NCBI GenBank assembly: GCA_964540105.1
Contig: CAZILL010000001.1
Coordinates: 1,034,063-1,098,062, forward strand
Direction of reading: 5' to 3'
DNA: 64,000 nt
Origin: an uncultured Ignavibacteriales bacterium
Lineage (GTDB): Bacteria > Zixibacteria > MSB-5A5 > GN15 > FEB-12
Part shown: positions 31,961 to 63,669 of the stretch, piece after piece
How the letters are laid out: every line of letters starts with the position of its first letter
Numbering within the stretch: the stretch's first letter is position 1
Made by a program: the position numbers and the translations under genes
Notes under the pieces: generated by a model
Databases searched by the model: none
What the model was told of the DNA's origin: nothing
What the model saw: only the letters and a program-made list of their open reading frames with translations

Positions 31961-32503
31961 TCAGGCCTCATAGACAGAGGGCGCGAGTCTCTTCTCCCCA
32001 TCGGCCACCTTGATCACTCTGGCCGGATTGCCGACGACGGTCGCGTATGCCGGAACATTGCTGATGACCACGCTTCCCGCGCCGATCCTGGCGTAATCAC
32101 CGACCTGAATGCCCCCAAGGATGACGCTATTGGCCCCGACTTCGACATTGTCTCCGATTACCGGACTCGGTCCCTGTGAGCCATCAGCGAGTTTAACACA
32201 GCCGATCGTCGTGCAGTGACGCACGTGAACGTTGCGCCCGATAACAGTGCGATCGTTGATGACCAGGGCATAGCCGTGCTCGATCTTCAGTCCAGCCCCG
32301 ACGCTGGTCGAAGCGCGCAGTTCCACGCACAGGATGTACTCGACCATCACACGGTAGGCAATCATGAATGGAATGCCGAGCCACCACAGGATCGAACCGC
32401 GTCGCCGGGCGAACAGATTGACGAAGCGGAAGAACACGAGAATGAGTATGATCTTGACCTGCCCCCTGTTGTTGACGTAATCCTGAAACAGATATCGAAT
32501 CAT
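31961..32503 (-). CDS. Hexapeptide-repeat O-acetyltransferase (serine acetyltransferase-like)
   Basis: The left-handed beta-helix repeats read VGAGLKIEHGYALVINDRTVIGRNVHVRHCTTIG...PVIGDNVEVGANSVILGGIQVGDYARIGAGSVV. Confidence 0.75.
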   Translation of the reverse strand: MIRYLFQDYVNNRGQVKIILILVFFRFVNLFARRRGSILWWLGIPFMIAYRVMVEYILCVELRASTSVGAGLKIEHGYALVINDRTVIGRNVHVRHCTTIGCVKLADGSQGPSPVIGDNVEVGANSVILGGIQVGDYARIGAGSVVISNVPAYATVVGNPARVIKVADGEKRLAPSVYEA

Positions 32504-38074: not shown

Positions 38075-39600
38075 TCGAGCATCCCATTTGAGGCAGGAAT
38101 CCCGCGTGATCTGAGAACCTGGTTCAAGTACGATCGTTCGTTATCATGGAGCAGGAAACGGTAATTGACTCCGGCGTGAATCACAAGAATGATTCCGGCG
38201 CAGGAGCCCATTGCGACGTAGTTGTCGGACAGCAGAAGACGCACCAACAGATAACTACCCACGGCTACTACGCTGACAGCGACAATAGGCACGAGGGGCT
38301 TCACCAGCGCTTCGACTTCCATCTCAAGAAACTTCTTCATTGAAAGTGAGTAAGGAGCGAGGTAGAAGACCTCTGCCAGCAGAGTCCCTATCATGAGGCC
38401 GGCCAGCCCGATCACGTTCAGCAAGATTAGGCTCCCGACAATTTTGACGAGGGTATACGCTATTGAAATCCACATCGTCTGCTTCACCTTCTCCATGCCG
38501 ACGACCATCGTGGATGCAATCGATGGAATCGGCAGCACGAGGTAGGCGGAGAGCAGTATCAGGGCCAGGTACGAGCTCGAGGCAAACAGTTCGCCGACCC
38601 ATGCGCGCAGAAGATAATCCATGAACACAAACAGGACGGCGAGCAGGGGGAGGAGGATCAGATATGCATAGCGGACGAGATCGACGAACAATCGGCGCAG
38701 CGACGAAAGATCGTTGATTTGATGCAGGCGCGCCACCTCGGGAATAATGGCAGAATTGAGCACGCTAAGCACGAGACGCAACAGATTGGCGGGGCGGGTG
38801 ACGACGTCATAGATCGTCATGCCGGCTACGGCTTGGAAGAACCAGATCAGAAACTTGTCGACCTGATTACAGAGCAACCCGATCAGGCGATTGACGAACA
38901 GTATGCCGCTGTAGCTGAAGAGACGTCTCAAGAGTGTCAGATTGAAGCGCGGTCGCATGCCGCGAAACGCGGTACGTCTTAGAAAGAACACCCCGACATA
39001 GACGATCAGAGTCACACCCGATAGACACATGATGACGAGAAAAGCCAGGTCAATTCGATGAAACTTCACCGCGATGACAATCAAGAGAATATACCGGCCG
39101 ATATTCATGATCGAATTGATCGACTTCGTGAGAACAAATTGTCGAAGCCCCTGCAGAATCGCCGCGAAGGGTAACGTCATGAATTGGATGACAATATTTA
39201 CCGACACATATGTCATCGCCGTCAGCGCTTCCTCTTTGTTCAGCGCCGAGTGTTCGCCGAGCATCCGTGACGCAATGATATCTCCGCACAGGTAGAGCAC
39301 TACTCCGAGAATGCTCCCTAACGCGGCGTAATAAGCCAGCGAAACGGAGAGGGCATCTTCAAGTTCAGTGGTGGCGCCATTGGCATCGATGCGCGCCACG
39401 TGATTCATCAGCGATCCCTCCATCCCCAGATCGAAGAACGAGAGCATGCCGTAGATGCTGAAAACGCTGAGAAAGACAAATGCGCCGTAGCCATCGACGC
39501 CGAAATTGTGAATCAGGACTGGCGTGGCAAGAAAACTGAGGATAATCAATATGATCAAGTCGAGACCGGAGAAGACAGTATTCCTGAAAAGAGCGTTCAT
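38050..39600 (-). CDS. Oligosaccharide flippase (Wzx; MOP/Polysacc_synt family)
   Basis: It is 516 aa with about 14 TM segments. The N-terminus FRNTVFSGLDLIILIILSFLATPVLIHNFGVDGYGAFVF is typical of Wzx. Its 3' end overlaps the convergent HisF-like gene by 25 nt. Confidence 0.75.
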   Translation of the reverse strand: MNALFRNTVFSGLDLIILIILSFLATPVLIHNFGVDGYGAFVFLSVFSIYGMLSFFDLGMEGSLMNHVARIDANGATTELEDALSVSLAYYAALGSILGVVLYLCGDIIASRMLGEHSALNKEEALTAMTYVSVNIVIQFMTLPFAAILQGLRQFVLTKSINSIMNIGRYILLIVIAVKFHRIDLAFLVIMCLSGVTLIVYVGVFFLRRTAFRGMRPRFNLTLLRRLFSYSGILFVNRLIGLLCNQVDKFLIWFFQAVAGMTIYDVVTRPANLLRLVLSVLNSAIIPEVARLHQINDLSSLRRLFVDLVRYAYLILLPLLAVLFVFMDYLLRAWVGELFASSSYLALILLSAYLVLPIPSIASTMVVGMEKVKQTMWISIAYTLVKIVGSLILLNVIGLAGLMIGTLLAEVFYLAPYSLSMKKFLEMEVEALVKPLVPIVAVSVVAVGSYLLVRLLLSDNYVAMGSCAGIILVIHAGVNYRFLLHDNERSYLNQVLRSRGIPASNGMLDHTRTLKP

Positions 39601-51628: not shown

Positions 51629-52025
51629 ACGACAATCAAACCTTTCGTGGGGCGGATAAGTTTCCGCCTCGTTAGAAACTCCGCATCTGAGTCATTGATC
51701 AAACCATTGACGGGAAGATCATCCAAAAGAAACCCGGGTTCGACAATTGCCGCCCGGGTCAATGCAGATTCTAACAAGAATAACATGGAATGTTGAATTC
51801 TACAAGCCCTTTCTTGGACTTCTATGGAGAATGTCGGTCGTGGAGTCGGCCCCGCCGGAAGCAAGAGGTGAGTTGGCAGCAGATTGCCCTGCATTGACTT
51901 ACCAGTAGGAGTTGACGTCGTGAAGAGGATCAGCCTTTCAGTTTTTGTCGTTGACTTTCACTATCTATGATCGCAATTTGCTTAGAAACTACGAACCAGC
52001 AAAACCTGATATCGATGTAACCAAT

Positions 52026-53087
52026 ATGGGCAAACCAGCGGCTCGGATGGGAGATACAACAGTCCACGGCGGGACCATAGTGGTTGGGGCGCCGACGGTC
52101 CTGATCGGCGGCATGATGGCGGCTCGCGTGGGGGACATGCATGTCTGCCCCATGCTCAATCCCGGAGTGCCGCCACCACCCCACGTGGGAGGACCGATTA
52201 TGCCGCCCGGTGTTCCGACAGTCCTGATCTGTGGAACTCCGGCAGCCTGTGTCGGAGACATGGTCACCTGTGCCGGACCGCCTGACACGATCGCGCCTCC
52301 CGGTTGTCCGACCGTCATGATTGGAAGTGGCGGCGGCGGGGGCGGTGGAGCGGGCGCTGGCAGTGGTGGTCTTGACGTGGGACAGGGAGATAAGTCAAAA
52401 AGCTCCGAGCCGCCCAAAGGGCATTTCCTTGACGTCAGATTTGTCGACAAGGCGGGATTGCCAGTTGGCGGTGTCGAGTACGTGATCAAAGACCCAACAG
52501 GCGCCGTGACCACCGGCACCCTGTCGGGTCAACTGCGCAAAGGGGGAGTGCCCGAAGGGAACCATGAGATCATTCTGAAAGGGATCACGAAGGCGGAATG
52601 GTCGGTCAAGTCGGCTCGGGTCGGCGATACGGTGAAGCTCAAGGCGGAAACATCGGGAATCGATGACGGCGAAAAGGGGAGCTTCGACATCTTTATCAGG
52701 GAGTCGCGCTTCGCGCATACACTCTTGAAGACCATCGAGACCACAGTGCAGGGGGATAAGGTAGAGGCCGAATGGGAACTGCAAGTCGACGAAAAGTACC
52801 TCAACCTGCAGCGCGACAAACTTCAGAAAGGGGGTTATTCTTCCCCCACATTCTATTTCGTGGTCAAGACTCCCTACGGCGTTCGCCGCTCAGCCACGCT
52901 CGAGTATAAGGATTGGATCGAGCTGGAATATAAGAATGCCGAGGGGAAGCCGATGGCCAATAAAGAATACAAGCTCTTTCTCCCCAACGGGGAAGTGCGC
53001 AAAGGAAAGCTCGATGGCAACGGTTATGCCAAGATCAACAACGTTCCCCCCGGCCTGATCAAGGTGGTTGTGGATCCCCGGAAATAG
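52026..53087 (+). CDS. PAAR-domain spike-tip protein with a Gly linker and a roughly 240-aa C-terminal extension
   Basis: There are three PAAR motifs (KPAARMGD, MMAARVGD and TPAACVGD), each followed by a ...PTVLIGG/PTVLICG/PTVMIGS strand. A G-rich linker (GSGGGGGGGAGAGSGG) follows. The extension ends in short beta-rich segments, for example YKLFLPNGEVRKGKLDGNGYAKINNVPPG. I preferred the start at MGKPAAR (52026) over the TTG at 51945. Confidence 0.85.
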   Translation: MGKPAARMGDTTVHGGTIVVGAPTVLIGGMMAARVGDMHVCPMLNPGVPPPPHVGGPIMPPGVPTVLICGTPAACVGDMVTCAGPPDTIAPPGCPTVMIGSGGGGGGGAGAGSGGLDVGQGDKSKSSEPPKGHFLDVRFVDKAGLPVGGVEYVIKDPTGAVTTGTLSGQLRKGGVPEGNHEIILKGITKAEWSVKSARVGDTVKLKAETSGIDDGEKGSFDIFIRESRFAHTLLKTIETTVQGDKVEAEWELQVDEKYLNLQRDKLQKGGYSSPTFYFVVKTPYGVRRSATLEYKDWIELEYKNAEGKPMANKEYKLFLPNGEVRKGKLDGNGYAKINNVPPGLIKVVVDPRK

Positions 53088-53117
53088 AATCTTTTCGCTG
53101 ACGGATTGTGACCTCAG

Positions 53118-56100
53118 ATGACCTTGCCGCCATCCAAAGTGAAGTTCGCCGTGACTTCAAAGGGAGCCCTGCCTCCGACGCATCAGAAATTCGAGGTGCA
53201 GCAGGAACGAACTGTGGTCCATATTCTCGAAATGGAAGACGTGCTGTTCCACCACGACAGCGCGGTCATGATGCCCGAGAATCCGGAGGGAACCTCTTCC
53301 ACACAAGGAGGGGGCGCCACCCCTGAGCAGACGAAGATCAGCGGCGTCAAAGCGCTGGCGCTTGTGTTTAAGCAGTTCGAGTTCAATCCAAAGCAGAAGA
53401 TCATCATCGCCGGTCACACCGATACCTCCGGCGGTGCGACCTACAATTTCAAGCTTTCGGACCTGCGCTCGAAGAATGTTCTCTATCTATTGATCGGTTC
53501 GCAGAACGACTGGGCGAAGATCTGCCACGAGAAGCAGAAGATTGAAGACCACAAGCAGATTCTGACCTGGGTGTTCAAGAAACGTCACTGGCCCTGTAAT
53601 CCCGGGTCAATCGATAACAATTGGGATAGTCCGCTCGAACAGGCGCTGACGGCCTTCGTCAACTACTATAACATGGAGTACGCCGACAAGAAGAAAGTGG
53701 CTCGTCTCGACGACAACATGGTCACAATCGTGAAAGCGGACGGCCAGAAGCGCTGGCCCGTCCAGCTTTGGGAAGCGGTATATAATCTGTATAACGACGA
53801 ATTGTGCGAGGTCCTTGCGGACACGCCGGAACAGCTGGACAAGCGCCGCCTTGACACCCTTAGGTTCGTCGAAGACTCCAAGCCCTATGTGGCGTGCGGT
53901 GAGTCCTTTCCGATTCAGGCCAAGGACAAGAGCGACTATCGTTCCCAGACCAATCGCCGCGTCGAGATACGCTTCTTCGATGAGGGAGAAGCGCCGGCGC
54001 TCGACTGCCCCAAGGATGTCAGCGCTGTTCACAAGGAGAAAGATTGCCCGCTCTATCACCCTGATCTCTACGACCCGAAGTATATCTCCCCAAGCGATCT
54101 CTATGCGGTCATGTACCATGTCTGCTTTCGATTCTATGATCGGATCGCCAAGAAGCTTCGAGATGTCCCGAGAGGAATCACGATCAAGGCTTTCGAGAAC
54201 GATACAGTTCCCGTCGACATCGTGCAGGAAGAGGTCGTCAAATCGAATGACTCCTGCGTCTATGCCCTCAAACTGCAATTCAAGACAGCCCTCAACGACC
54301 CGAACCGAAAGAAGCTTCATTTTGAATTCACCACCGACAGCCAGTGGGTTTTCACTGACAGCGACAAAGTCGCCCCGACCGTTGTCACCAAGAAAGTGGA
54401 TGAAGTTAAGAAACTCGCTCTGCCGGACCGGTTCAAGTATTACGACCTGCCATTGCGCTGGTCATCGCGGAATTACTGGACACGCTATGACGGAGACATG
54501 GCCACGGGAGAACGATTTGAAAACGTACTCACAGTACAGAAGAAGCTCAAGCCCTTTGGCGGGAATGTCACTGCCCCCGACACGCCCTTGATCTTCTGCC
54601 TGGACGACCTCGTACTTCTTGATGTCAAGGATGGCACTCAGAACATATATGACTGCGACCATATCCACCCCAACTGCGATGTTGTCGCTGTCGACAAGGG
54701 GAAACCGCTCTCGGAGAAGTCGCGCGTGAAGATTTTCTTCGTCGATCAGACCAAGGGACTGCTGAATCTGTATCAGCCCGATGCAACCAAGCCGATGTCA
54801 AGCCGCATTCCGTTCAAAGTCAACCTGCTGCCGACGAAGGCCGACGACTCAGCTAACGCCAGGATTGTCTTCTTCCGGGACGGTTTCTATACAATCGGCG
54901 ACAAGCGAGCTGTGGCCGACGCCTCCTACGATCCGGCGAAACATGTTCTTGGGGCGCGGGCAGCAGTCAGAAACGACACCGACTTTCATCTCCATTGGCC
55001 GATGGGATACAATCACACCGAGTTCGGCTCAACCGGTGATTACGATCTGCATTATTTCCATCACCAGCATCTTGACGGCAAACATCCGGTCTCGTACACC
55101 ATCTCCTATGTGTCGATCAGTTTCATGATTGACTCGAGGAGACAGCCCGCGAATCCTCCGGCTCCTGCCGCCCCCATTAATCCCAAACCTTCGAAGGCCG
55201 ATGTCAAGCAGTTCGTCGATGAATTCGTCTACGACGCTGTCCGTCATTGGAACAAGAAGCAATACTTCCTCGAAGAAAAACCGGTGACGGAGACCTCGGT
55301 CGTCATTCGCCCCTTCTACTTTTTCGATGAACGCGAGACCTTTGTCGTCCCCGATCCGCAGCCGGACAACATCGACTTCGACACCAGACCCGACCCCGCT
55401 CATCCGGCTGTCTCGAATTTCACGGAACTGTTCTCAAACGTCAAAGCCCCGTCCATTCTCAAAGCGCGCCAAGATGCGCTCGGGGGAAAGTCAAAGTTCC
55501 TGGCGCTGGTGTGTCGTGATGAAAACGGACACTGGGGACCCGCGTATCAGTGGGCGATCCGCACCGAAGGGTATCTCTACTCATTGTTCAAACTCAACAA
55601 GTCGGGAGGTACTGACCAGAACGACGTCTTCAATCCCAAGGTACCCGTCACCGAACACGGGGACTCTTTCGGGGCGCACACGATGGCTCATGAACTGGGG
55701 CATGCTACAGGACAGCCCGATGAGTATGTCAAGACGCTCTACAAGCCGGACCCCAACGACAACTATGCGTCCCCGGATTTCGACCAATTCATGATCCAGT
55801 TATCGATGCCGGAGAACGTGACCTCAATGATGTTCCATAATGGTGCGCCTCGCTTGCACCATTTATGGTATCCGATGCACCAAATAATGGAAGCGACCAA
55901 AGCGGCCCCGCTGAAAACGCTCCTTCCCGACAAGACTTTTGTGGCTCGCCTGAAACGGGACACCTGGGATATCACCTACACGCGTTCGCTGACGGCCGTC
56001 GGTCCCTCGACCCGTCCCGCCGACATGGCTCTGCCAATGGCTCAAACGGCACAGTTTGAAGTCGCCCACTCGCCGCTCAAACGCCTGAATCTGGCGCTCT

Positions 56101-56651
56101 ACGATGTGGGGAAAGACGAATCGTCAATCAAGTACTTCCACCCCAACCAGGACGCCGCGCCAAGCCCTATTCAGTATCAGGCTGTGCTGGTTGTTCGATT
56201 GCTGCTGAGCTGTCAATTCACTCACGGCGCCTGGACCGGCAATCAACAGGCCGTTCGCGTGTTCCGGCTTCAACAACAATGGGAGTCATACGAGACCCCC
56301 TCAAACCCACCAGCCGGCAAGGGTTACTTTCGATTGGTGGGCGGATCCGGTGAGATCAAGAACATTTTCGTGCATTTTATGGCCGGCTTTCTCCCTTCGA
56401 ATTCCACGAGCGCCGCCTTGGCCAACAACAACTACGCCCTTGACTTCCATCACGCCAACGCGCCTGCGACCGGGACGAGAATCCCGAACACGGGCGGTTC
56501 CGTCATTATCTATGACAATGTAACGGCGGACGAATTTGTGCGCTATGCGCTGAACATAATCAATCCGGCGGCGCCGCTGGGTCAAATGAGCTATCTTAAG
56601 ACATGGACCGACGCCCGCCTGGGCGATTCCTATACTCTGGAGCAGTTCTGA
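53118..56651 (+). CDS. Leaderless 1177-aa protein: interrupted OmpA-like peptidoglycan-binding domain plus C-terminal HExxHxxGxxD zinc-metallopeptidase motif (candidate T6SS cargo effector)
   Basis: The OmpA_C blocks VLFHHDSAVMMPE, IIIAGHTDTSGGATYNFKLSDLRSKNV and RSQTNRRVEIRFF are separated by an insert of about 130 aa. That insert contains PGSIDNNWDSPLEQALTAFVNYYN, which resembles PG_binding_1. HTMAHELGHATGQPDEY lies at nt 55689-55727. There is no signal peptide or TM segment. Confidence 0.7.
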   Translation: MTLPPSKVKFAVTSKGALPPTHQKFEVQQERTVVHILEMEDVLFHHDSAVMMPENPEGTSSTQGGGATPEQTKISGVKALALVFKQFEFNPKQKIIIAGHTDTSGGATYNFKLSDLRSKNVLYLLIGSQNDWAKICHEKQKIEDHKQILTWVFKKRHWPCNPGSIDNNWDSPLEQALTAFVNYYNMEYADKKKVARLDDNMVTIVKADGQKRWPVQLWEAVYNLYNDELCEVLADTPEQLDKRRLDTLRFVEDSKPYVACGESFPIQAKDKSDYRSQTNRRVEIRFFDEGEAPALDCPKDVSAVHKEKDCPLYHPDLYDPKYISPSDLYAVMYHVCFRFYDRIAKKLRDVPRGITIKAFENDTVPVDIVQEEVVKSNDSCVYALKLQFKTALNDPNRKKLHFEFTTDSQWVFTDSDKVAPTVVTKKVDEVKKLALPDRFKYYDLPLRWSSRNYWTRYDGDMATGERFENVLTVQKKLKPFGGNVTAPDTPLIFCLDDLVLLDVKDGTQNIYDCDHIHPNCDVVAVDKGKPLSEKSRVKIFFVDQTKGLLNLYQPDATKPMSSRIPFKVNLLPTKADDSANARIVFFRDGFYTIGDKRAVADASYDPAKHVLGARAAVRNDTDFHLHWPMGYNHTEFGSTGDYDLHYFHHQHLDGKHPVSYTISYVSISFMIDSRRQPANPPAPAAPINPKPSKADVKQFVDEFVYDAVRHWNKKQYFLEEKPVTETSVVIRPFYFFDERETFVVPDPQPDNIDFDTRPDPAHPAVSNFTELFSNVKAPSILKARQDALGGKSKFLALVCRDENGHWGPAYQWAIRTEGYLYSLFKLNKSGGTDQNDVFNPKVPVTEHGDSFGAHTMAHELGHATGQPDEYVKTLYKPDPNDNYASPDFDQFMIQLSMPENVTSMMFHNGAPRLHHLWYPMHQIMEATKAAPLKTLLPDKTFVARLKRDTWDITYTRSLTAVGPSTRPADMALPMAQTAQFEVAHSPLKRLNLALYDVGKDESSIKYFHPNQDAAPSPIQYQAVLVVRLLLSCQFTHGAWTGNQQAVRVFRLQQQWESYETPSNPPAGKGYFRLVGGSGEIKNIFVHFMAGFLPSNSTSAALANNNYALDFHHANAPATGTRIPNTGGSVIIYDNVTADEFVRYALNIINPAAPLGQMSYLKTWTDARLGDSYTLEQF

Positions 56652-56657
56652 AAAGAG

Positions 56658-57860
56658 ATGATGCACGCAAAGCGATGGCTGCTGTTGTTTGGAGTGGCGC
56701 TGATGCCCGCAGCTTCATGCCATTCGGGCAAACAGGAGGTAACCGTGGCTAACCCCGTCTTACTTAACACAACCTTGTATGGCGATCGCCAGAATAGCTC
56801 CTCGCTTCCCGTCGACGGCCGACCGGACGGCGAAGCGGTCTGGGAGAAGCCGTCGATCCTGGCCGATCAGCCGCGCCCGGCTCTTCATTTGGCGATTGCC
56901 GATTCACTTCTCCTGGTATCGTACGGGGGAGTGATCGACGCTCGTCGGCTCGACAACGGTGAGCCGATCTGGCGCCGCCAGGTAGGTGGAAACGCACTCT
57001 TTGATCTGAGGCCAGAAGGGCTCGTGACCCTCGATCCTGGCGGCTTCTATCAACTCATCGCCATGAACCAGAAACTGACAGAACCGATCTCTTTGCCGTT
57101 TCTCTCATCAAAGGCAATTCTCCACTATAGCCGCCGTCTTGGGGATGAAATGCTTTATTGCTACGAGAGTATCCCTACGCCCACCAACAGCCCGGGCGAT
57201 GAATTCGGCGGCCCCAACTTCTCTCTGTATCGTTTCAATCTCAAAACCGATGATTTCGCGTGGCAATTCCGGCGACCTGAGAATGTTGTCACAGTCATAG
57301 AATCACCTGATGGCGCGCAGGTTGGGGTAGCAACCGGCCAGAATCTGTATCTACTCCCTGCTGAGGCTCGCTCAGACAGCGCAGTCTCGACGATCAGCTT
57401 CACACGTCTGGTTTCCTGTTCATGCGACCACGCCGCACGGATTCTCGCAGTCGTGGAGTTCCCGCAGGAAGAAGGTGGGCTCACCCTGCAGGCAATCAAC
57501 GCCAAGCACGAAGTGGAGTGGAAATTACCTCTTGGTGAGACGGTCCCGTCCCTGCAGCCGCCATCCGTCGGTCCCGGGGATGCCATCTACTTGATAGTAG
57601 ATGCCAAATTGCTGAGCGTAAGCGCTGGGGCAATCACGTGGACAGCGCCTATTCCGGGTAACGCCAACGAAGCTCGACTGACCGTGCTGAAAGATGGCTC
57701 GGTCCTCTGTGCCGCAGGAAGAACCCTGCTGCACATTTCATCACGAGGCGACATCCAGATGAACAAGCCGCTCAAAGAGGCGGCAACCTGTCGACCGATC
57801 ATGGACTCTCGCGGTCGAGTGATTGTCGCGGGACTGAACAGTGTAATCTGTATTGAGTGA
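56658..57860 (+). CDS. Lipoprotein with a BamB/PQQ-like beta-propeller appearance (candidate immunity protein)
   Basis: A signal peptide plus lipobox-like MPAASC is present. Repeated roughly 40-aa strand-rich units have W/G patterns (GEPIWRRQVGG, DFAWQF, EVEWKLPLG and ITWTAPIPG). The function is contextual inference. Confidence 0.55.
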   Translation: MMHAKRWLLLFGVALMPAASCHSGKQEVTVANPVLLNTTLYGDRQNSSSLPVDGRPDGEAVWEKPSILADQPRPALHLAIADSLLLVSYGGVIDARRLDNGEPIWRRQVGGNALFDLRPEGLVTLDPGGFYQLIAMNQKLTEPISLPFLSSKAILHYSRRLGDEMLYCYESIPTPTNSPGDEFGGPNFSLYRFNLKTDDFAWQFRRPENVVTVIESPDGAQVGVATGQNLYLLPAEARSDSAVSTISFTRLVSCSCDHAARILAVVEFPQEEGGLTLQAINAKHEVEWKLPLGETVPSLQPPSVGPGDAIYLIVDAKLLSVSAGAITWTAPIPGNANEARLTVLKDGSVLCAAGRTLLHISSRGDIQMNKPLKEAATCRPIMDSRGRVIVAGLNSVICIE

Positions 57861-58309
57861 GGATTCAAGATATGGCGCAAACGACCACCATGCCCACTTT
57901 CTCTCTCCTCCCTCCCAATGGTTGGGAGGATCAGACTGTCTATACGTTTAGGGGTCCCGACGACAGCGGGCATCAGCACTTTGTGACCTTGACCATCGAC
58001 CCCTCACCGGGCTCCGATGATGTCGCTGAATTCGCCCGAGTGCGGATCGATGCCACCCTCACCACTCTGCAGGGAGCTGAAACCCTCAAAGACGAGCCGA
58101 AAGAGCTTCCGAACGGTAATCCGGCTCATGAGTGTGTCTATAAGTGGATACCGGTTGACGGGACGGTGCGGTTCGTGAAGATTGTCTTTCTGTTGATTGG
58201 CGGTCGCGGGTACACATTCTCGGGGACTTTCTCCAGAAAGACCATCAAGACCATTGCCCTCGAGATGGATCAGATGGTGAACAGCTTCACTCCAACGCTT
58301 TCCAAATGA
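57857..58309 (+). CDS. DUF1795 (DcrB/Eag-type effector chaperone family)-like protein
   Basis: PTFSLLPPNGWEDQTVYTFRGP...FVTLTIDP...L..F...RIDATLTTLQG...YTFSGTF fits the DUF1795 F-x-LP-x-GW-x-D-x-T/S-V opening and size (about 145 aa). The GTG at 57857 overlaps the upstream stop; an alternative ATG lies at 57872. Confidence 0.6.
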   Translation: MRIQDMAQTTTMPTFSLLPPNGWEDQTVYTFRGPDDSGHQHFVTLTIDPSPGSDDVAEFARVRIDATLTTLQGAETLKDEPKELPNGNPAHECVYKWIPVDGTVRFVKIVFLLIGGRGYTFSGTFSRKTIKTIALEMDQMVNSFTPTLSK

Positions 58310-58325
58310 GTGAACGAAGATAGCC

Positions 58326-59192
58326 ATGGAACTGAAATTCTCCAAAGCCACTGACACGCCGCATAAGATCAAACTGGAATCGGACCTGATCGAAACCAGC
58401 TGGGCGAGTGGCGTCGCATATATGGGACTGCCGGCCGCATTTGTCGTTCGGACCTCCTTTGTCGGCAATGGCGCATCGGTCGAAGTCACGGGTAAGTCCG
58501 ATAAGGGGAAGAAGTGCGGTAAAGTCAAGGGTGAGATTTCCAACAACGCCTTCATGGGCGCTCTGGATATTCCCGACAATCTTGACCCAAAGGACAAGGT
58601 CTATTTCGAAGTGAAGCTCCCCAAGCATGGCCTGAACGGGGATTCGGACCTCATCCCGGTCAAGCCTGGTGTGCTCGTGACGAACATGAAGTGGAGCGCC
58701 AAAGAGGCGCGGCGTGGAGAGATTCTCACCCTTTCGGCCGACGTCCGTGGGGCTGCCGACGATACCGAGGTTCTGGTCACGATATACGAGTTTGATCGGG
58801 ACAGTATCCACGACAAGATTGCCGAGCTGAAGGCGGTGGTGAAGAACCAGCAGATCAGGTTGGACTGGGAGTATCAGTACTTCGAGGACACCGACGAAAT
58901 CCCGTCCGACGCCGAGCTGCAGCGATACGGTCGCAGCTACAACCCGCCGGAGTACTTTTTCACGGTGAAAGTGGAGAAGCAGGAATTCGGCAAGAAGCAA
59001 CAGGACTCCGGCCTGCTGGAGTTCAAAGACTGGATCGAGATTGAGGCTATTGATGACAGCGGACAGCCGATCAAGAATGCCAAATACAAAGTAACCCTCC
59101 CCGATGGAACTGAGCGAGAAGGTAGTCTCGATCAAAACGGACGGGCGCGCCTGGAGGATATTCCTCCCGGTGAATTCACCGTGGATCTCTGA
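58326..59192 (+). CDS. Hypothetical protein paralogous to the C-terminal extension of the PAAR protein (candidate adaptor)
   Basis: Residues about 122-288 align by eye with PAAR-protein residues about 217-380 (ORF-track numbering). Matching pairs are KWSAKEARRGEILTLSADVRG/EWSVKSARVGDTVKLKAETSG, RLDWEYQ/EAEWELQ, YFFTVKV/FYFVVKT, LEFKDWIEIE/LEYKDWIELE and KYKVTLPDGTEREGSLDQNGRA/EYKLFLPNGEVRKGKLDGNGYA. Confidence 0.6.
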   Translation: MELKFSKATDTPHKIKLESDLIETSWASGVAYMGLPAAFVVRTSFVGNGASVEVTGKSDKGKKCGKVKGEISNNAFMGALDIPDNLDPKDKVYFEVKLPKHGLNGDSDLIPVKPGVLVTNMKWSAKEARRGEILTLSADVRGAADDTEVLVTIYEFDRDSIHDKIAELKAVVKNQQIRLDWEYQYFEDTDEIPSDAELQRYGRSYNPPEYFFTVKVEKQEFGKKQQDSGLLEFKDWIEIEAIDDSGQPIKNAKYKVTLPDGTEREGSLDQNGRARLEDIPPGEFTVDL

Positions 59193-59369
59193 TGGATTTT
59201 ACGAATAGCTCGACGATTGGCGATTTGTGAATGATGCTCACAAGGGACGCTCATGTGTGATGGCAGCAGAGGCCGTGCCAGAGGCCGGAGCGGCGGGCGA
59301 ACCCGCGTAACGGTCGAACCGCAACTCGTGGAGCCAGCGGTCAGAGTGTCGCGCGTCTCCGTGCAGGAC

Positions 59370-60485
59370 ATGGCCGAGACGCATCATGTCGGCACACTCA
59401 CAAACACCTTTCATGGCGAGAATTTCAGCCAGGAAGAACAGCGCATCGCATTGGAGGCTAACGCTCTTTTCGAAGTCGCTCTCAACGTCCGAACCGTGAA
59501 TTACGTGACCGTTGTTCGACCACGCCGAGCGGGGGCAGCCGCCGCTGCCGGTGAGTTTATGCTCTTTAATGTCGTGCCCAACACCAATACCGGCACACTT
59601 GATATCTTCAAAATTGGCACCCCTCCGACCGCCCTCCCGAGTGACAACGACGTAGCGACCGTCACGCGGCGCTTGAATAGTTATGGAATCGCTTTCGACA
59701 ACGCCTGGCGAGACCAGGATAAGCGCGTCGCCTTGATGGCTCTCAACATATTGACCGATCAGGAACTTGAGCGTGTTCGGGGGCTTCACTTTCGGCGCAG
59801 AGGTACCGCGCCTCCTGAGGTTCATCAAAACGAATCTGAGCAAGAGGGGGGCGCCTATTGGGATAGCCAGCACACGGTGGACATATATAACCTCGGTATG
59901 GTTAATGGCGCGCTCATGTCGCTTGGCACGAATTCGACGAATCTCCTGCCGGGCTGTGCGCAGACAGTCCTGCATGAGGTAGGGCATGCTCTCGCGTTTG
60001 CCGAAGTCCGGCTCGCCGGCGAACGAAATCGTGAGGCACGGGCAAACCTCTTGAGGGAACGCGAGCGAATTTCTAATCGCTGGCCCGACTATTTCAGGGT
60101 CCGAAACCCGGATCCCGACCACTACGAGTATCAGTACGAGCAACCAAGCACGGTGCCGACCAGCGATCGGCCTGCCTATAGTTCTGACCTACAGAGCCTC
60201 AGGAGTGCAGAGAATGCCTTTTCAACAGCCAATCGCAGTTACACCGGCATGGACCAAAGCCACATGGCTGCAGATTTCCAGCGGATCCAGCGTCAGTTGG
60301 CTCCAGTGACTCCGTACAGCCGAACACGGCGCGCCAATATGGGGCGAGATGCCGAGCGCGTCCGGGCTGCATCGGAAGAGTTCCTGGCCGACAGCTTTGC
60401 CATATACCGATGGAATCCGGAGTGGCTTCGTGCCAATCGCCGAACCGTTTTTGACTTTTTCGACCAGAACCGTCATCTTCGATGA
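59370..60485 (+). CDS. Leaderless HExxH zinc-metallopeptidase-like protein (candidate second effector)
   Basis: TVLHEVGHALAFAE (HEVGH at nt 59973-59987) is present, with possible downstream ligand or stabilising Glu residues (EEFLADSFAIY). There is no signal peptide. I preferred the start at MAETHH (59370). The ORF-track start at 59253 adds an Arg/Gly-rich low-complexity leader. Confidence 0.55.
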   Translation: MAETHHVGTLTNTFHGENFSQEEQRIALEANALFEVALNVRTVNYVTVVRPRRAGAAAAAGEFMLFNVVPNTNTGTLDIFKIGTPPTALPSDNDVATVTRRLNSYGIAFDNAWRDQDKRVALMALNILTDQELERVRGLHFRRRGTAPPEVHQNESEQEGGAYWDSQHTVDIYNLGMVNGALMSLGTNSTNLLPGCAQTVLHEVGHALAFAEVRLAGERNREARANLLRERERISNRWPDYFRVRNPDPDHYEYQYEQPSTVPTSDRPAYSSDLQSLRSAENAFSTANRSYTGMDQSHMAADFQRIQRQLAPVTPYSRTRRANMGRDAERVRAASEEFLADSFAIYRWNPEWLRANRRTVFDFFDQNRHLR

Positions 60486-60647: not shown

Positions 60648-62105
60648 ATGGATATAGCTAATTACTCTTCCGACGCTCGCGCAGTGATCAAGAATGCCCG
60701 CGAAGTTGCGGCCAGCTTCCGGCACCCGGAAATCTACATCGAACATCTGCTCATGGCGACCATCCGCCATGAAGGCTCAGAAGTTGAGTCAATCCTCAAC
60801 CAGCTTGGCAAGAGCAAAGTGTTCGTCGAATCAATCATCGAAGAACATCTCAAATCTCAACCCTCCAAGATGTCAGCTCGTGACAATCTCACTATCGCGC
60901 CACCGGTGCAGGATGTGCTCATTCAGGCGATCGAGGAAAAGGCCAAGCTGTTCGATGCTCTCGTTGAACCACATCATATCTTCATCGCGATTCTCGACCC
61001 GAAATCGCATCTCTCCGGTTACATTCGCGAGAAAATCGACATTACGAAGGAAGATATCTATCGCGGCATCGCGGAAAGCAAGTCGGTGGCCGAAATCACG
61101 TCGAAAACGACCGTTGCTGGAGCCACGGGTGGTTCCGAAGCCACAGGAGAGGTGGCCGGAACCCTGCGCTATTGCATCGATCTGACCAACCAGGCGGCCG
61201 CCGGTGAGTTCGACGTGTGCGTGGGGCGCGAAAAGGAAGTTCAGCAGGTCATCCAGATTCTTCTTCGCCGCCGGAAAAACAGCCCGATCCTCGTCGGGGG
61301 AGCTGGTGTCGGGAAAACCGCCATTGTCGAAGGATTTGCGCGGGCGATCATCGATAAGAAAGTTCCCGCCGCCCTGTGTGATGCTAAAGTCATGGGGGTC
61401 GACATGGGGGCGTTGGTCGCTGGGGCCAAGTACAAAGGGGAATTCGAAGAGCGCTTCAAGAGTTTGGTCAGCGAAGTGGTCAAGACGGCGGGCAAGATCA
61501 TCCTGTTCATCGACGAAATCCACACCATCGTCGGCGCCGGTAACGGGGGAGGCGGCATGGACGCTGCTAATCTGCTCAAGCCCGCGCTGGCGCGCGGTCA
61601 GATTCGGCTGGTAGGCGCAACCACCGAAGAGGAATACATCAAGTACATCGAGAAGGACAAAGCCCTCGACCGGCGTTTTGAAAAGGTCAAGGTCGCTCCT
61701 CCGAATTACGATGAAGCTGTCCGTATTGTCAGCGGAGTCATTCCCAAGTACGAAACCCACCACAAGATTGTCTACTCCGCGGAAGCCATTACCGGATCGG
61801 TTCGTTACGCCCAGCGATACCTCAGCGAACGAAATCTCCCTGATATCGCGCTTGATATCATCGACGAAGCCGGGTCGGAGTTCAGCGTGAAAGAGGAGTT
61901 CGCCCGAGTAATCGTGCCGACGATCTCAACGCAGATCACGGAAATCGAGAAACTGGTTGCCGCGTGTGAAGGCAAGAGGGTGGCGACGGACAAGGAACCG
62001 TTTGACAAACTAAACATGGCCTACACCGAATTCACCCGCCTGGTTGACCGTCTTCAAGGTTACTGGGGACATCGTGCCGAAGTGGCGAAGGAGGCGAAGT
62101 CATGA
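60648..62105 (+). CDS. clpV: ClpV/ClpB-type AAA+ ATPase, N-terminal half (Clp_N domain, D1 ring, first part of middle domain)
   Basis: Clp_N repeats (ARAVIKNAREVAASFRHPEIYIEHLL) are present. D1 Walker A is GGAGVGKTAIVEG and Walker B is IILFIDEIHTIVGAG. KPALARGQIRLVGATT and a coiled-coil tail follow. It stops inside the middle domain. Confidence 0.85.
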   Translation: MDIANYSSDARAVIKNAREVAASFRHPEIYIEHLLMATIRHEGSEVESILNQLGKSKVFVESIIEEHLKSQPSKMSARDNLTIAPPVQDVLIQAIEEKAKLFDALVEPHHIFIAILDPKSHLSGYIREKIDITKEDIYRGIAESKSVAEITSKTTVAGATGGSEATGEVAGTLRYCIDLTNQAAAGEFDVCVGREKEVQQVIQILLRRRKNSPILVGGAGVGKTAIVEGFARAIIDKKVPAALCDAKVMGVDMGALVAGAKYKGEFEERFKSLVSEVVKTAGKIILFIDEIHTIVGAGNGGGGMDAANLLKPALARGQIRLVGATTEEEYIKYIEKDKALDRRFEKVKVAPPNYDEAVRIVSGVIPKYETHHKIVYSAEAITGSVRYAQRYLSERNLPDIALDIIDEAGSEFSVKEEFARVIVPTISTQITEIEKLVAACEGKRVATDKEPFDKLNMAYTEFTRLVDRLQGYWGHRAEVAKEAKS

Positions 62106-63208
62106 CCGCCGCTCCATTGGATTTCAAGGGTATCAAGCAGGACTTTGAACAGAGAATTGCCCAATTCAATCGACTGCGGGGGGTTGTTGAGAAGCTCGAG
62201 AAGAAGATCGAAGACGCGGACATCGCCGCCGTTGTCGCTCGCCGGACCGGCATCCCGCTTTCCAAGATGCTGACGGCCGAGAAAGATCGGCTGGTCAACA
62301 TGGAGTCGTTCCTGTCGGCCAAAATCATAGGTCAGGACAAAGCGATCAGCGCGATTGCCAATGCCGTCCGCAAAGCAAGAGCCGGACTGAAGATGCCGAA
62401 CCGACCCGTGGGGAGTTTCCTCTTCCTCGGTCCGACCGGTACCGGCAAGACGTATCTGCCGAAACTGCTCGCCGAATTCCTCTTCGACGATAAGAACGCG
62501 ATGGTACGCTTTGATATGTCCGAGTACATGGAAACCCATTCCGTCGCCAAGATGATCGGCGCTCCGCCCGGGTATGTCGGCTACGAAGCCGGGGGCATGC
62601 TGACCGAGGCCGTGCGCAAGAAGCCGTTCTCGATTGTCCTGTTCGACGAGGTCGAAAAGGCGCACCCCGACGTCTTCAATATACTGTTGCAGTTGCTTGA
62701 TGACGGCCGTCTTACGGACGGTCAGGGACGCACCGTCGATTTTTCCAACTGTCTGGTCGTCCTCACCTCGAATTATGCCGCCGACAAAATTCTCGACGCC
62801 GACCGTGAGGGGCGCGACCTCGACATGGATGAGGTTCGGGCGTTCCTCTTCACCAAGTTCCGCCCGGAACTGCTGAACCGTCTGAACGACATCATTATTT
62901 ATCACTCATTCAAGATGGAACAGATCGAGGTTATCGCCGGACTGGAATTCGATTCTCTGGTGAAACTGCTGAAAGATCAGAACATCAACGCCACCCTGAG
63001 CACCGAAGCGCGCAAGAAACTCGCCCGCGATGGCTACACGTTCGAACTGGGGGCGCGCCCCATTCAACGCATCATCGAGAAGGAGGTCATCAACAAGCTC
63101 TCGGTCGATATCATCACGGGAACTGTTGAACCGGGTGATCACGTTATGGTTGATATCGTAAACGACGCGTACGTGTTCACAAAGAAACCGAAAACGACCA
63201 TCGAGTAG
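62102..63208 (+). CDS. clpV: ClpV/ClpB-type AAA+ ATPase, C-terminal half (rest of middle domain, D2 ring, C-terminal domain)
   Basis: IAAVVARRTGIPLSKM and IIGQDKAISAIANAVRKARAGL are present. D2 Walker A is FLGPTGTGKTYL and Walker B is IVLFDEVEKAHPDVFN; sensor-2 is GARPIQR. The ATG overlaps the upstream stop as ATGA, and AAGGAGG ends 7 nt upstream of it. Confidence 0.85.
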   Translation: MTAAPLDFKGIKQDFEQRIAQFNRLRGVVEKLEKKIEDADIAAVVARRTGIPLSKMLTAEKDRLVNMESFLSAKIIGQDKAISAIANAVRKARAGLKMPNRPVGSFLFLGPTGTGKTYLPKLLAEFLFDDKNAMVRFDMSEYMETHSVAKMIGAPPGYVGYEAGGMLTEAVRKKPFSIVLFDEVEKAHPDVFNILLQLLDDGRLTDGQGRTVDFSNCLVVLTSNYAADKILDADREGRDLDMDEVRAFLFTKFRPELLNRLNDIIIYHSFKMEQIEVIAGLEFDSLVKLLKDQNINATLSTEARKKLARDGYTFELGARPIQRIIEKEVINKLSVDIITGTVEPGDHVMVDIVNDAYVFTKKPKTTIE

Positions 63209-63228: not shown

Positions 63229-63669
63229 ATGGGAAAATTTATGCTCGGCGCCTCGGAACGAATCCAGAAGGATGATTCAATACCCGTTGAACTCCTTCCC
63301 TCGAACAAGATCTTGTACGCCGCAAAACTCAACAGTGATCAGGACGCCGATGTCACTCCGACACGGTGCAACAACCTCAAAGACGTGTTTGAGAAATTCC
63401 GCCCAGAGTTTTCCGTAGAAATGGAAAATACGCAGGGGGAACAGGTGAACGCATCATTCGAAATTCGCGCAATGAAGGATTTCACCTCGAAAGAACTGAT
63501 CGAAAAGAACGACCATCTGTCCAAGACCTATTATGGCAAATCGATGATGGACGATCTCGAGACCCAGTTGAAGAAGAACAACGCTCTGAAGAAAACGCTT
63601 GAAGACAAGCAGAAGAAAGAAGCTCTCCTAAAGGTCGCCAAGTACTATATCGACCTGCTGAGCGAATAA
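63229..63669 (+). CDS. tssB: T6SS contractile sheath small subunit-like protein (TssB/VipA-like)
   Basis: It is 146 aa with GGAGGT 6 nt upstream. By-eye resemblances to VipA blocks are VELLPSNKILYAAKL (cf. ELPLKTLVVGDF), NLKDVFEKFRPEFSVEMEN and FEIRAMKDFTSKELIEKNDHL (cf. LNFKSLADFAPDAV). It lies between clpV and a probable tssC. Confidence 0.6.
   Translation: MGKFMLGASERIQKDDSIPVELLPSNKILYAAKLNSDQDADVTPTRCNNLKDVFEKFRPEFSVEMENTQGEQVNASFEIRAMKDFTSKELIEKNDHLSKTYYGKSMMDDLETQLKKNNALKKTLEDKQKKEALLKVAKYYIDLLSE

What the first reader, a model, noticed from the sequence alone, without database searches (positions are those of the whole stretch)
60648..63208. ClpV-like AAA+ unfoldase naturally split into D1 and D2 polypeptides with an internal Shine-Dalgarno and ATGA coupling
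The first ORF (485 aa) carries Clp_N, the complete D1 ring (GGAGVGKT, ILFIDEIH) and the beginning of the coiled-coil middle domain. The second ORF (368 aa) carries the rest of the middle domain, the complete D2 ring (GPTGTGKT, IVLFDEVEKAH, GARP) and the C-terminal domain. Together they total 853 aa, the size of a single ClpB/ClpV chain.

The junction reads GCGAAGGAGGCGAAGTCATGACC. AAGGAGG (62088..62094) lies 7 nt before the ATG (62102), and that ATG overlaps the TGA stop (62103..62105). The same ATGA coupling is used at three other genuine gene junctions in this window (rSAM-rSAM, pseC-pseF-like and amidotransferase-hisH-like).

A well-spaced internal RBS argues for a real two-gene arrangement rather than a random frameshift. 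A ClpV hexamer assembled from separate D1 and D2 chains would be mechanistically interesting for sheath recycling. I do not know of it as a described T6SS feature.
Basis: partly seen in the sequence, partly recalled or inferred. Interest (0 to 1): 0.6.

Follow-up and report, generated by a model that had tools for sequence, protein, structure and literature searches.

The report
Naturally two-piece T6SS ClpV-like ATPase
The motor protein that recycles the spring of a bacterial injection weapon is here encoded as two overlapping genes instead of one, an arrangement kept across most of a bacterial phylum, showing that nature tolerates cutting this double-ring machine within its middle domain, between the two ATPase modules.

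Summary
The split is real and not an assembly error or pseudogene.

- **The two ORFs.** ORF A (60648..62105, 485 aa) carries Clp_N, the AAA+ D1 module and two middle-domain helices. ORF B (62102..63208, 368 aa) carries the third middle-domain helix, the D2 module and D2-small. They overlap in ATGA, with AAGGAGG 7 nt before the ATG.
- **Conservation.** The same break is present in 78 of 79 species-level genomes, mostly Zixibacteria. It always lies directly upstream of tssB-tssC-hcp-vgrG-tssE-tssF.
- **Selection.** Both halves have dN/dS of 0.02-0.09 and invariant catalytic motifs.
- **Internal start.** Every split locus analysed has a start codon at the break. 70 of 76 have a Shine-Dalgarno core, against about 18 of 74 for the first gene.
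- **Structure.** The break falls in a disordered loop of the predicted model. ClpB has about 20 more residues at this position (its motif-2 wing).
- **New caveat.** Single-chain orthologues (64-70% identical, same synteny) exist in Krumholzibacteriota and Latescibacterota and sporadically in Zixibacteria. They are nested among split forms, so the state has flipped several times.
- **Family placement.** The clade meets neither the NCBIfam TssH nor the ClpB cut-off.

I found no published description. An in-vitro precedent exists (Beinker 2005).

The parts
60648..62105 (+). Gene 1: N-half of the split Hsp100/ClpV-like ATPase (485 aa). It contains the Clp_N domain, the AAA+ D1 module, the D1 lid and middle-domain helices A (residues 399-440) and B (449-476). 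It ends in a variable Gly/Ala/Glu-rich tail.
   Evidence: ORF list. Pfam Clp_N, AAA and AAA_lid_9. ClpB model positions 4-461. More than 120 clusters of 482-489 aa relatives. AF2 helices. dN/dS 0.01-0.09.
61296..61319 (+). D1 Walker A motif GGAGVGKT. The family consensus is GGAGVGK[ST].
   Evidence: Read directly from the sequence. G, G, G and K are invariant in 65 of 65 family members.
61842..62075 (+). Middle-domain hairpin encoded by gene 1 (helices A and B). It ends in the family-invariant W-G-H-R motif.
   Evidence: AF2 model with pLDDT 72-92 in this stretch. W473 and R476 are invariant.
62088..62094 (+). Internal Shine-Dalgarno sequence AAGGAGG inside the coding tail of gene 1, 7 nt before the ATG of gene 2.
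   Evidence: An SD core is present at 70 of 76 related junctions and the 5-mer at 55 of 76. The spacing is 7 nt in 42 loci. The N-half's own start has an SD core in only 17-18 of 70-74 loci.
62102..62105 (+). ATGA start/stop overlap, the site of translational coupling.
   Evidence: 51 of 79 related loci have the same 4-nt overlap, 15 a 1-nt overlap, 5 a 2-nt gap and 3 an 8-nt overlap.
62102..63208 (+). Gene 2: C-half (368 aa). It contains middle-domain helix C (residues 8-30), the segment DADIAAVVARRTGIP (residues 38-52) that aligns to the ClpB stretch leading back from the M-domain, the AAA+ D2 module and the D2-small domain.
   Evidence: ORF list. Pfam AAA_2 and ClpB_D2-small. It aligns to E. 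coli ClpB residues 508-858. More than 120 clusters of 362-371 aa relatives. dN/dS 0.02-0.085.
62429..62452 (+). D2 Walker A motif GPTGTGKT.
   Evidence: Seven of the eight positions are invariant in 65 of 65 members; the Pro is conserved in 64 of 65.
63229..63669 (+). tssB (small sheath subunit), the immediate downstream neighbour. tssC, hcp, vgrG, tssE, tssF, tssG and tssK follow beyond the end of the window.
   Evidence: Pfam T6SS_VipA and TIGR03358. Downstream genes seen on L001. Of loci with enough downstream DNA, 65 of 65 have TssB and 64 of 65 have TssC.
51945..59192 (+). Upstream part of the same T6SS locus: a PAAR protein (51945..53087), a 1177-aa OmpA-like protein (53118..56651), a 400-aa protein (56658..57860), a DcrB-like protein (57857..58309) and a 288-aa protein (58326..59192).
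   Evidence: Pfam. The PAAR, DcrB-like and 288-aa proteins recur upstream in 52-56 related loci.

Best explanation
**What it is.** This is a genuine gene fission of the Hsp100-type AAA+ ATPase that serves this type VI secretion system (the ClpV/TssH role). The two genes are co-transcribed. Ribosomes that terminate on gene 1 at TGA, or ribosomes recruited by the conserved Shine-Dalgarno 7 nt upstream, initiate at the overlapping ATG. The two chains are therefore made side by side on one mRNA.

**How the chains most likely assemble.** The cut lies in a flexible loop of the middle domain. ClpB carries about 20 more residues at this position, which is its motif-2 wing. Chain 1 supplies the N-domain, the D1 ring module and two middle-domain helices. 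Chain 2 supplies the third middle-domain helix, the short segment that in ClpB-type proteins runs back towards the D1 small subdomain, and the D2 ring module. The chains most likely re-associate non-covalently through this shared middle-domain/D1-small module and through D1-D2 stacking. Six such pairs would form a normal double-ring unfoldase that threads and disassembles contracted TssB/TssC sheath.

**What is shown.**
- The split exists and is conserved.
- The start codon and SD at the break are conserved.
- The gene pair is always linked to T6SS genes.
- Both halves are under purifying selection with intact catalytic motifs.
- The break lies in a loop predicted to be disordered.
- Single-chain orthologues exist.

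**What is inferred.** Two separate polypeptides are made, they assemble 1:1 into a hexamer, and that hexamer recycles the sheath.
For: **Conservation of the split**
- More than 120 90%-identity clusters of about 485-aa N-halves and of about 366-aa C-halves exist.
- 78 of 79 GTDB species-level loci are split at the same place.
- Two deeper families, at 41-45% identity, are split at the homologous spot. One lies in full T6SS synteny; the other is on a contig that ends at the pair, with FHA and kinase genes upstream.

**Initiation at the break**
- All split loci have a start codon at the break.
- An SD core is present in 70 of 76 loci, mostly 7 nt upstream. The first gene's own start has one in about 18 of 74.

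**Function retained**
- dN/dS is 0.01-0.09 for both halves.
- Walker A/B motifs, pore loops, sensors and Arg fingers are invariant in 65 of 65 sequences, and there is no ClpP-binding IGF loop.

**T6SS context**
- 65 of 65 loci have tssB downstream and 64 of 65 have tssC.
- The T6SS genes were identified by Pfam.

**Orthology with single-chain proteins**
- Unsplit proteins 64-70% identical occupy the same position in the same synteny.

**Structure**
- In an AF2 model (pLDDT 78.9), the junction residues 479-489 are the only low-confidence stretch between two confident helices.
- The alignment to ClpB places the break where ClpB has 44 residues and this protein has 24.

**Precedent and assembly check**
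- T. thermophilus ClpB NBD1-M and NBD2 expressed separately are reported to restore chaperone activity. This is Beinker et al. 2005, cited in PMC4239642.
- An independent assembly gives an identical junction.
Against: - There is no protein-level evidence. Nothing here shows that two chains, rather than a recoded fusion, are made, or that they bind each other.
- No model of the two chains as separate molecules could be made. The only usable model treats them as one chain, and its coordinates and PAE were not available, so inter-chain contacts are inferred from homology.
- 71 of 78 split loci place gene 2 in the -1 frame relative to gene 1. That frame is what a -1 frameshift would need, although it is also the automatic consequence of ATGA, TAATG and TGATG overlaps.
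- The existence of single-chain orthologues nested among split forms suggests the split carries little or no functional consequence.
- The role in sheath recycling rests on gene context only. The clade fails the curated TssH threshold.
Confidence: 0.8

Rival explanations
1. Assembly or sequencing error, or a recent pseudogene. On this reading a 1-nt indel broke a normal single clpV gene in this genome.
For: A single-base change at such a junction would be enough to break or join the frames. One related nanopore MAG (L081) does show frameshifts inside the N-half.
Against: - The same break occurs in 78 of 79 species-level genomes with varied junction types.
- More than 120 clusters of each half exist in public data from many sources.
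- dN/dS is 0.02-0.09 in both halves.
- A start codon is present at every split junction, and an SD core at 70 of 76.
- An independent Logan assembly gives the identical sequence.
Confidence: 0.01
2. Programmed recoding. Ribosomes shift by -1 at the end of gene 1, stimulated by the upstream SD-like element, and make a single full-length ~95 kDa chain as the main or an additional product.
For: - Gene 2 is in the -1 frame in 71 of 78 split loci.
- The SD-like element is unusually well conserved for a locus where many genes lack one.
- From general knowledge, SD-like elements stimulate frameshifting in dnaX and prfB.
Against: - There is no slippery heptamer at the junction, and the bases before the stop are not conserved.
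- The frame relation is not universal. Three loci with an 8-nt overlap and one with a 43-nt gap are in the +1 frame. L039 is in frame behind a TAA. The L082 family has a 36-nt gap.
- An ATG, GTG or TTG sits at the break in every split locus, which a frameshift mechanism would not require.
- The SD-ATG spacing of 7 nt is the initiation optimum, not the spacing known for frameshift stimulation.
- The -1 frame follows automatically from ATGA and TAATG overlaps.
Confidence: 0.05
3. The two products no longer work as one machine. They could form separate single-ring ATPases, or one could act as an adaptor or regulator with a function different from an intact ClpV.
For: - The SD strengths of the two genes differ, so unequal amounts are possible.
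- Isolated ClpB NBD1-M is reported to be an active ATPase on its own (PMC4239642).
Against: - The two genes are always adjacent. They overlap in 69 of the 78 split loci and are within 3 nt in another 6.
- Both halves keep all catalytic and pore-loop residues.
- Orthologues at 64-70% identity are single chains in the same locus position.
- Chain 2 begins with middle-domain and D1-proximal elements that have no obvious role without chain 1.
Confidence: 0.08

Closest known systems
ClpV / TssH, the T6SS sheath-recycling AAA+ ATPase (NCBIfam TIGR03345)
   Same: It is a class-1 Hsp100 with a Clp_N domain and two AAA+ modules. It has no ClpP-binding loop. It is encoded immediately next to tssB and tssC in a T6SS cluster.
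   Different: It is encoded as two overlapping genes. The summed TssH scores of the two halves (376.8 + 308.9) and those of its unsplit orthologues (682-741) fall below the TssH cut-off of 884.95, and the ClpB model scores higher. Whether the N-domain binds TssC was not tested.
ClpB / Hsp104 disaggregase (TIGR03346)
   Same: ClpB gives the best sequence match for the C-half and a near-top match for the N-half, where ClpC scores marginally higher. ClpC and ClpB are the top structural matches. A helical middle domain is inserted in the D1 small subdomain. From the literature, Francisella uses ClpB itself for T6SS sheath disassembly (PMC7182274, abstract).
   Different: It scores below the ClpB cut-off (about 857 summed, or 859-970 for unsplit orthologues, against 1232). 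The middle domain is predicted to have three helices and is about 20 residues shorter, exactly where ClpB has its motif-2 wing, the Hsp70-binding part according to PMC5319980. It sits in a T6SS context rather than a heat-shock context, and it is split.
Engineered split ClpB of Thermus thermophilus (NBD1-M plus NBD2; Beinker et al. 2005, J Biol Chem 280:37965)
   Same: The Hsp100 is divided into a D1-plus-M fragment and a D2 fragment that work together without a covalent link. The title and its use are cited in PMC4239642.
   Different: That split is a laboratory construct cut after the whole M-domain. Here the cut is natural, lies inside the M-domain, is maintained by selection across a phylum and is tied to a translational-coupling signal. 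I could not read the original paper in the library.
Gene fission/fusion pairs with translational coupling (ATGA or TAATG overlaps) in prokaryotic operons
   Same: There is a 4-nt start/stop overlap with an SD inside the upstream coding region. Split and fused states alternate among related lineages.
   Different: The protein concerned is a tandem-ring AAA+ motor. Its two rings must stay in register in a hexamer, and the cut falls inside a regulatory domain rather than between domains.

Membership tests
ClpV/TssH (T6SS ATPase) | Scores above the curated NCBIfam TIGR03345 threshold (884.95 bits) | tested here: not met
   The halves score 376.8 and 308.9 bits. Unsplit orthologues P0411, P0399 and P0432 score 682, 700 and 741 bits.
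ClpV/TssH (T6SS ATPase) | Encoded within a T6SS gene cluster next to the sheath genes | tested here: met
   tssB starts 21 nt downstream. Of related loci, 65 of 65 have tssB and 64 of 65 have tssC, followed by hcp, vgrG, tssE, tssF and tssG.
ClpV/TssH (T6SS ATPase) | Class-1 Hsp100 architecture (N-domain, two AAA+ modules with intact Walker, pore-loop and sensor motifs) and no ClpP-docking IGF loop | tested here: met
   Pfam domains. All motifs are invariant in 65 sequences, and 0 of 64 C-halves have an IG[FLM] loop. The architecture is met only by the two chains taken together.
ClpV/TssH (T6SS ATPase) | N-domain binds the N-terminal helix of TssC on contracted sheath, and the ATPase disassembles the sheath | not testable with these tools
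   This needs binding and disassembly assays. Only a generic Clp_N match (E = 4e-7) was obtained.
ClpB/Hsp104 disaggregase | Scores above the curated NCBIfam TIGR03346 threshold (1232.1 bits) | tested here: not met
   The halves score 398.9 and 458.5 bits. Unsplit orthologues score 859-970 bits.
ClpB/Hsp104 disaggregase | Four-helix middle domain with two wings (motif 1 and motif 2), motif 2 mediating Hsp70 cooperation | tested here: inconclusive
   The AF2 model shows three helices (399-440, 449-476, 493-515). There are 24 residues where E. coli ClpB has 44. The isolated M-domain segment finds no PDB relative by sequence.
ClpA/ClpC (ClpP-coupled unfoldases) | ClpP-binding loop (IGF/IGL) in D2 | tested here: not met
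   No such motif is present in 64 C-halves. ClpC chains are about 9 residues longer over the aligned D2 region.
Translationally coupled split gene pair | Same-strand adjacent ORFs with start/stop overlap or a minimal gap, a conserved start codon and an RBS at the break, and both parts under purifying selection | tested here: met
   Junction classes in 78 loci. SD statistics. dN/dS.

The most novel reading that the evidence does not exclude
The split is not neutral but adaptive. Separating the chains at the position of the lost motif-2 wing, and giving chain 2 its own strong ribosome-binding site, would let the cell set the D1:D2 ratio or assemble the two rings conditionally. The D2 motor could, for example, be docked onto sheath-bound D1/N-domain rings only after contraction. 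That would be a new way of gating an Hsp100 unfoldase, replacing the Hsp70/M-domain switch of ClpB.
Probability: 0.1. Interest if true: 0.75.

Novelty: new variant of a known kind. Interest (0 to 1): 0.5.

Why it matters
Tandem-ring Hsp100 motors (ClpB, Hsp104, ClpA, ClpC, ClpV) are always discussed as single chains whose two rings communicate through the covalent D1-D2 connection and the middle domain.

Here a whole bacterial lineage runs its T6SS with the motor cut inside the middle domain, while near-identical single-chain versions exist next door in the tree. This gives matched split and fused pairs made by evolution. They could be used to test three things: how much inter-ring allostery needs the covalent link, what holds the rings in register, and whether the middle domain of ClpV-type proteins has any regulatory role.

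It also matters for annotation. These genes are currently labelled 'AAA family ATPase' or 'ClpA/ClpB' fragments. T6SS detection tools that expect one ~850-aa TssH may score these loci as lacking TssH or as carrying a pseudogene.

For T6SS biology itself the consequence is probably modest, because the labile split/fused state suggests near-equivalence.

Tried and rejected
1. **Single-sequence AF2 of the concatenated halves.** pLDDT was 38.6, which is unusable except for the helix pattern.
2. **Deeper alignments for the junction.**
   - MAFFT aligned the N-halves onto D2 (A2).
   - MAFFT stretched the partial rows across the junction (A5 and A6).
   - This was solved only after the third protein search returned natural single-chain relatives (A7).
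3. **Two-chain modelling.** Neither model coordinates, PAE nor a two-chain (multimer) prediction was available. Inter-chain contacts could therefore not be measured.
4. **PDB search with the middle-domain segment alone.** There was no meaningful hit.
5. **Remnants of an old SD/ATG/stop in the DNA of fused relatives (L063, L086-L088).** Nothing convincing was found, so the direction of change (fission or re-fusion) is not settled.
6. **Taxon names for the two deeper split families.** The cluster members carry no organism names.
7. **Literature searches.** I searched for split ClpV/TssH, T6SS in Zixibacteria and naturally split AAA+/ClpB. Nothing relevant was found.
8. **Programmed frameshifting.** I considered it and rejected it as the main mechanism. 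The reasons are given under the rival explanations.
9. **Reading the 1.84-billion-representative search as showing that no unsplit close relative exists.** This was rejected after one search showed the opposite.
Full report
**1. The observation**

The window contains two + strand ORFs, 60648..62105 (485 aa) and 62102..63208 (368 aa). The junction reads gcgAAGGAGGcgaagtcATGAcc.
- AAGGAGG occupies 62088-62094.
- The ATG of the second ORF is at 62102-62104.
- It overlaps the TGA of the first ORF at 62103-62105.
- The spacing between the SD and the ATG is 7 nt.

Pfam finds Clp_N, AAA and AAA_lid_9 in the first ORF, and AAA_2 and ClpB_D2-small in the second. The NCBIfam ClpB model is matched at positions 4-461 by the first ORF and 522-852 by the second.

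An independent Logan assembly of run SRR13723394 is identical to the window over 13,353 nt, including the junction. Other ATGA overlaps between long ORFs occur in the window, but none has a comparable Shine-Dalgarno.

**2. Is the split real or an accident?**

Searches of the 5.8-billion-protein collection gave these results:
- With the N-half, the best 120 clusters are all 479-520 aa long (nearly all 482-489) and 66-77% identical.
- With the C-half, the best 120 clusters are 340-376 aa long (nearly all 362-371) and 76-84% identical.
- Most named hits are Zixibacteria/Zixiibacteriota or GN15 MAGs.

I then scanned one genome per GTDB species with the family-specific last 120 residues of the N-half. 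This returned 80 loci. Of the 79 that could be analysed, 78 are split at the same place. The junction types are:

| Junction type | Loci |
|---|---|
| 4-nt ATGA overlap | 51 |
| 1-nt overlap (TAATG or TGATG) | 15 |
| 2-nt gap | 5 |
| 8-nt overlap | 3 |
| 3-nt in-frame gap behind a TAA | 1 |
| 43-nt gap | 1 |
| Disturbed by a run of N (L068) or by frameshifts in a nanopore MAG (L081), but with a normal junction | 2 |
| Single 855-codon ORF (L063) | 1 |

Other evidence points the same way:
- Pairs close enough for synonymous sites not to be saturated give dN/dS of 0.01-0.09 for the N-half and 0.02-0.085 for the C-half.
- Walker A and B motifs, both pore loops, sensor-1, sensor-2 and the arginine fingers are invariant in 65 of 65 sequences.

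An assembly error or a recent pseudogene is excluded.

**3. How the second gene is expressed**

Every split locus has ATG (rarely GTG or TTG) at the break. An SD core (GGAG, GAGG or AGGA) lies 4-16 nt upstream in 70 of 76 loci. The 5-mer is present in 55 of 76, and the commonest spacing is 7 nt (42 loci).

This is not a general property of these operons. SD cores occur at the following gene starts:

| Gene start | Loci with an SD core |
|---|---|
| tssB | 69 of 69 |
| hcp | 63 of 64 |
| tssC | 57 of 63 |
| C-half (subset) | 45 of 49 |
| N-half | 18 of 74 |
| vgrG | 4 of 34 |
| tssE | 1 of 56 |

The internal start is therefore under selection as an initiation site. The SD also explains why the last eight residues of the N-half are enriched in Gly, Ala and Glu and are poorly conserved.

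A programmed -1 frameshift would need the -1 frame, which 71 of 78 loci have. I consider it unlikely for four reasons:
- That frame follows automatically from ATGA and TAATG overlaps.
- There is no slippery sequence, and the bases before the stop are not conserved.
- Some loci use the +1 frame, an in-frame stop, or gaps of 36-43 nt.
- A frameshift mechanism would not need a conserved start codon.

**4. Context**

The pair is followed by tssB (63229..63669). On the longer contig it is then followed by tssC, hcp (TssD), vgrG, tssE, tssF, tssG and a TssK-like gene.

Upstream lie a PAAR protein, a 1177-aa OmpA-like protein, a DcrB-like protein and conserved unknowns.

In the related loci with enough downstream sequence, 65 of 65 have tssB and 64 of 65 have tssC in the same order. 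By position, the split gene is the TssH/ClpV of this T6SS.

**5. Where the cut falls**

By sequence alignment:
- N-half residues 19-474 correspond to E. coli ClpB 19-463.
- C-half residues 14-362 correspond to E. coli ClpB 508-858.
- The figures for T. thermophilus ClpB agree.

The 24 residues around the break therefore replace 44 residues of ClpB. According to PMC5319980, the ClpB M-domain has four helices forming two wings, and motif 2 is the wing that contacts AAA-1 and binds Hsp70. The missing residues fall in the region of that wing. The mapping is approximate, because the coiled-coil parts align weakly. The isolated segment finds nothing in the PDB.

I built an AlphaFold2 model of the concatenated halves, using 41 natural single-chain relatives as the alignment. 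Its mean pLDDT is 78.9. In the junction region it shows:
- helices at 399-440 and 449-476;
- a low-confidence loop at 479-489, which is exactly the junction;
- a helix at 493-515 (C-half residues 8-30);
- a short strand, then a helix at 523-534 (C-half residues 38-49, within DADIAAVVARRTGIP).

Foldseek places the model with ClpC, ClpB and Hsp104.

The second chain thus begins with a middle-domain helix and with the segment that in ClpB aligns to the stretch leading out of the M-domain. From my knowledge of ClpB structures, that stretch packs back on the D1 small subdomain. I could not check this on coordinates. It suggests that the two chains are held together by a shared helical module as well as by ring stacking.

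**6. Single-chain relatives**

A search with the concatenated sequence found 32 clusters of unsplit proteins. They are 830-854 aa long and 64-70% identical over 99% of the length.
- P0399 is the L063 protein.
- P0400 is labelled Zixiibacteriota.
- P0411 and P0423 are labelled Krumholzibacteriota.
- P0428 is labelled Latescibacteria.
- Further unsplit groups lie at 50-52% and 46% identity.

Three of these proteins were checked and sit at the same position in the same T6SS synteny. At the junction they read, for example, YWGHRLDREFE-SSLEFEKVK, with no Met or stop.

In a neighbour-joining tree, the ~840-aa unsplit clade is monophyletic in 100 of 100 bootstraps. The split forms are monophyletic to its exclusion in only 1 of 100. 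P0399 and P0400 are nested singly among split forms.

Two deeper split families break at the homologous spot, 47-53 residues before the TGIP motif:
- P0244 (45% identity, ATGA overlap, full T6SS synteny);
- P0245 (41% identity, 36-nt gap, FHA and Ser/Thr kinase genes upstream).

The state has therefore changed several times. Re-fusion needs only a small indel in an unconstrained linker and is mechanistically easier than fission. However, I found no sequence remnants that would prove the direction. NJ trees are also a weak basis for counting events.

**7. Family membership**

By context and architecture this is a ClpV-like ATPase. By curated models it is neither TssH nor ClpB:

| | TssH model (cut-off 884.95) | ClpB model (cut-off 1232.1) |
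|---|---|---|
| Two halves | 376.8 + 308.9 | 398.9 + 458.5 |
| Unsplit orthologues | 682-741 | 859-970 |

There is no ClpP-binding loop. The clade is best described as a distinct Hsp100 lineage recruited to this T6SS class. It is comparable in principle to Francisella, where ClpB itself serves the T6SS (PMC7182274, listed).

**8. Known or new?**

Full-text searches found no description of a split ClpV/TssH, of a T6SS in Zixibacteria, or of a naturally split Hsp100. A 2026 review of T6SS accessory factors mentions ClpV only as a hexameric AAA+ ATPase and never uses the word 'split'.

The nearest precedent is experimental. T. thermophilus ClpB NBD1-M and NBD2 can be made separately, and the title of Beinker et al. 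[quoted passage not shown] That paper is cited in PMC4239642. I could not read the original.

Public annotations call the halves 'AAA family ATPase' or 'ClpA/ClpB'.

**9. Verdict**

It is a real, selected, translationally coupled two-gene version of the T6SS unfoldase, typical of Zixibacteria.

It is a new variant of a known kind rather than a new kind of system. The interleaving with single-chain orthologues argues that the two forms are close to functionally equivalent. Interest is moderate at 0.5:
- It offers AAA+ mechanists natural matched split and fused pairs.
- It is a caution for T6SS annotation.
- No new mechanism has been demonstrated.

The most novel reading not excluded is that the split is used to gate or dose ring assembly. 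I give it about 10%.

Noticed in passing
window 59253..60485 (+): A 410-aa ORF with no Pfam match carries an HExxH zinc-metallopeptidase-like motif (…TVLHEVGHALAF…). It sits in the slot between the conserved 288-aa gene and the split ATPase. A relative was found in only 1 of the 66 related loci that have at least 1.5 kb of upstream sequence (2 of 79 in all), so this looks like a variable cargo or effector position of the T6SS locus.
   Followed up: partly
related loci L002-L081 (starts of tssB, tssC, hcp, vgrG, tssE and the N-half): Shine-Dalgarno use is strongly gene-specific within this T6SS operon. An SD core is present at tssB in 69 of 69 loci, hcp in 63 of 64 and tssC in 57 of 63. It is present at vgrG in only 4 of 34, tssE in 1 of 56 and the N-half in 18 of 74. 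This pattern would fit tuning of subunit stoichiometry at the level of translation.
   Followed up: partly
window 53118..58309 (+): No TssJ, TssL or TssM match was seen. Instead there are a conserved 1177-aa OmpA-like protein, a 400-aa protein with a weak BamB/PQQ_2 hit and a DcrB-like protein, which overlap or abut one another upstream. These may form the envelope-spanning complex of this T6SS class.
   Followed up: no
L082:3348-4836 and L087:5149-8102: FHA-domain and Ser/Thr-kinase genes lie next to the ATPase gene in two more distant branches of the clade, one split and one unsplit. This suggests a threonine-phosphorylation control pathway like that of some proteobacterial T6SSs. No such genes were seen in the stretch of the window examined (about 40000-64000).
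   Followed up: no
L063:3191-5759 (CAZGLR010000031.1), also P0400: Single-chain versions of the ATPase are nested among split Zixibacteria forms. They have no Met or stop at the junction, and the linker reads …YWGHRADPGSDDAPAKLITHADY…. They are probably secondary re-fusions, but the direction of change is not proven.
   Followed up: yes
alignment A7, window residues about 436-448 (nt about 61953-61991): The unsplit ~840-aa clade (Krumholzibacteriota and Latescibacterota labels) shares a deletion of about 10 residues at the tip of the first middle-domain hairpin, relative to the Zixibacteria forms (…ACEGKRVATDKEPF…).
   Followed up: no
window 61296..61319: The D1 Walker A motif reads GGAGVGK[ST] throughout the family. 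From memory, ClpA/B/C-type proteins usually have GEPGVGKT. The significance is unknown.
   Followed up: no
L081 (CAVPPI010000002.1) 4905-6360: The N-half of this nanopore-derived MAG is broken by two frameshifts, while the ATGA junction and the C-half are intact. This is most likely homopolymer assembly error rather than decay.
   Followed up: partly
window 26111, 36686 (+); 32500-32503, 39597-39600 (-): Four further ATGA start/stop overlaps occur between long ORFs elsewhere in the window. None is preceded by a GGAGG-type SD.
   Followed up: partly
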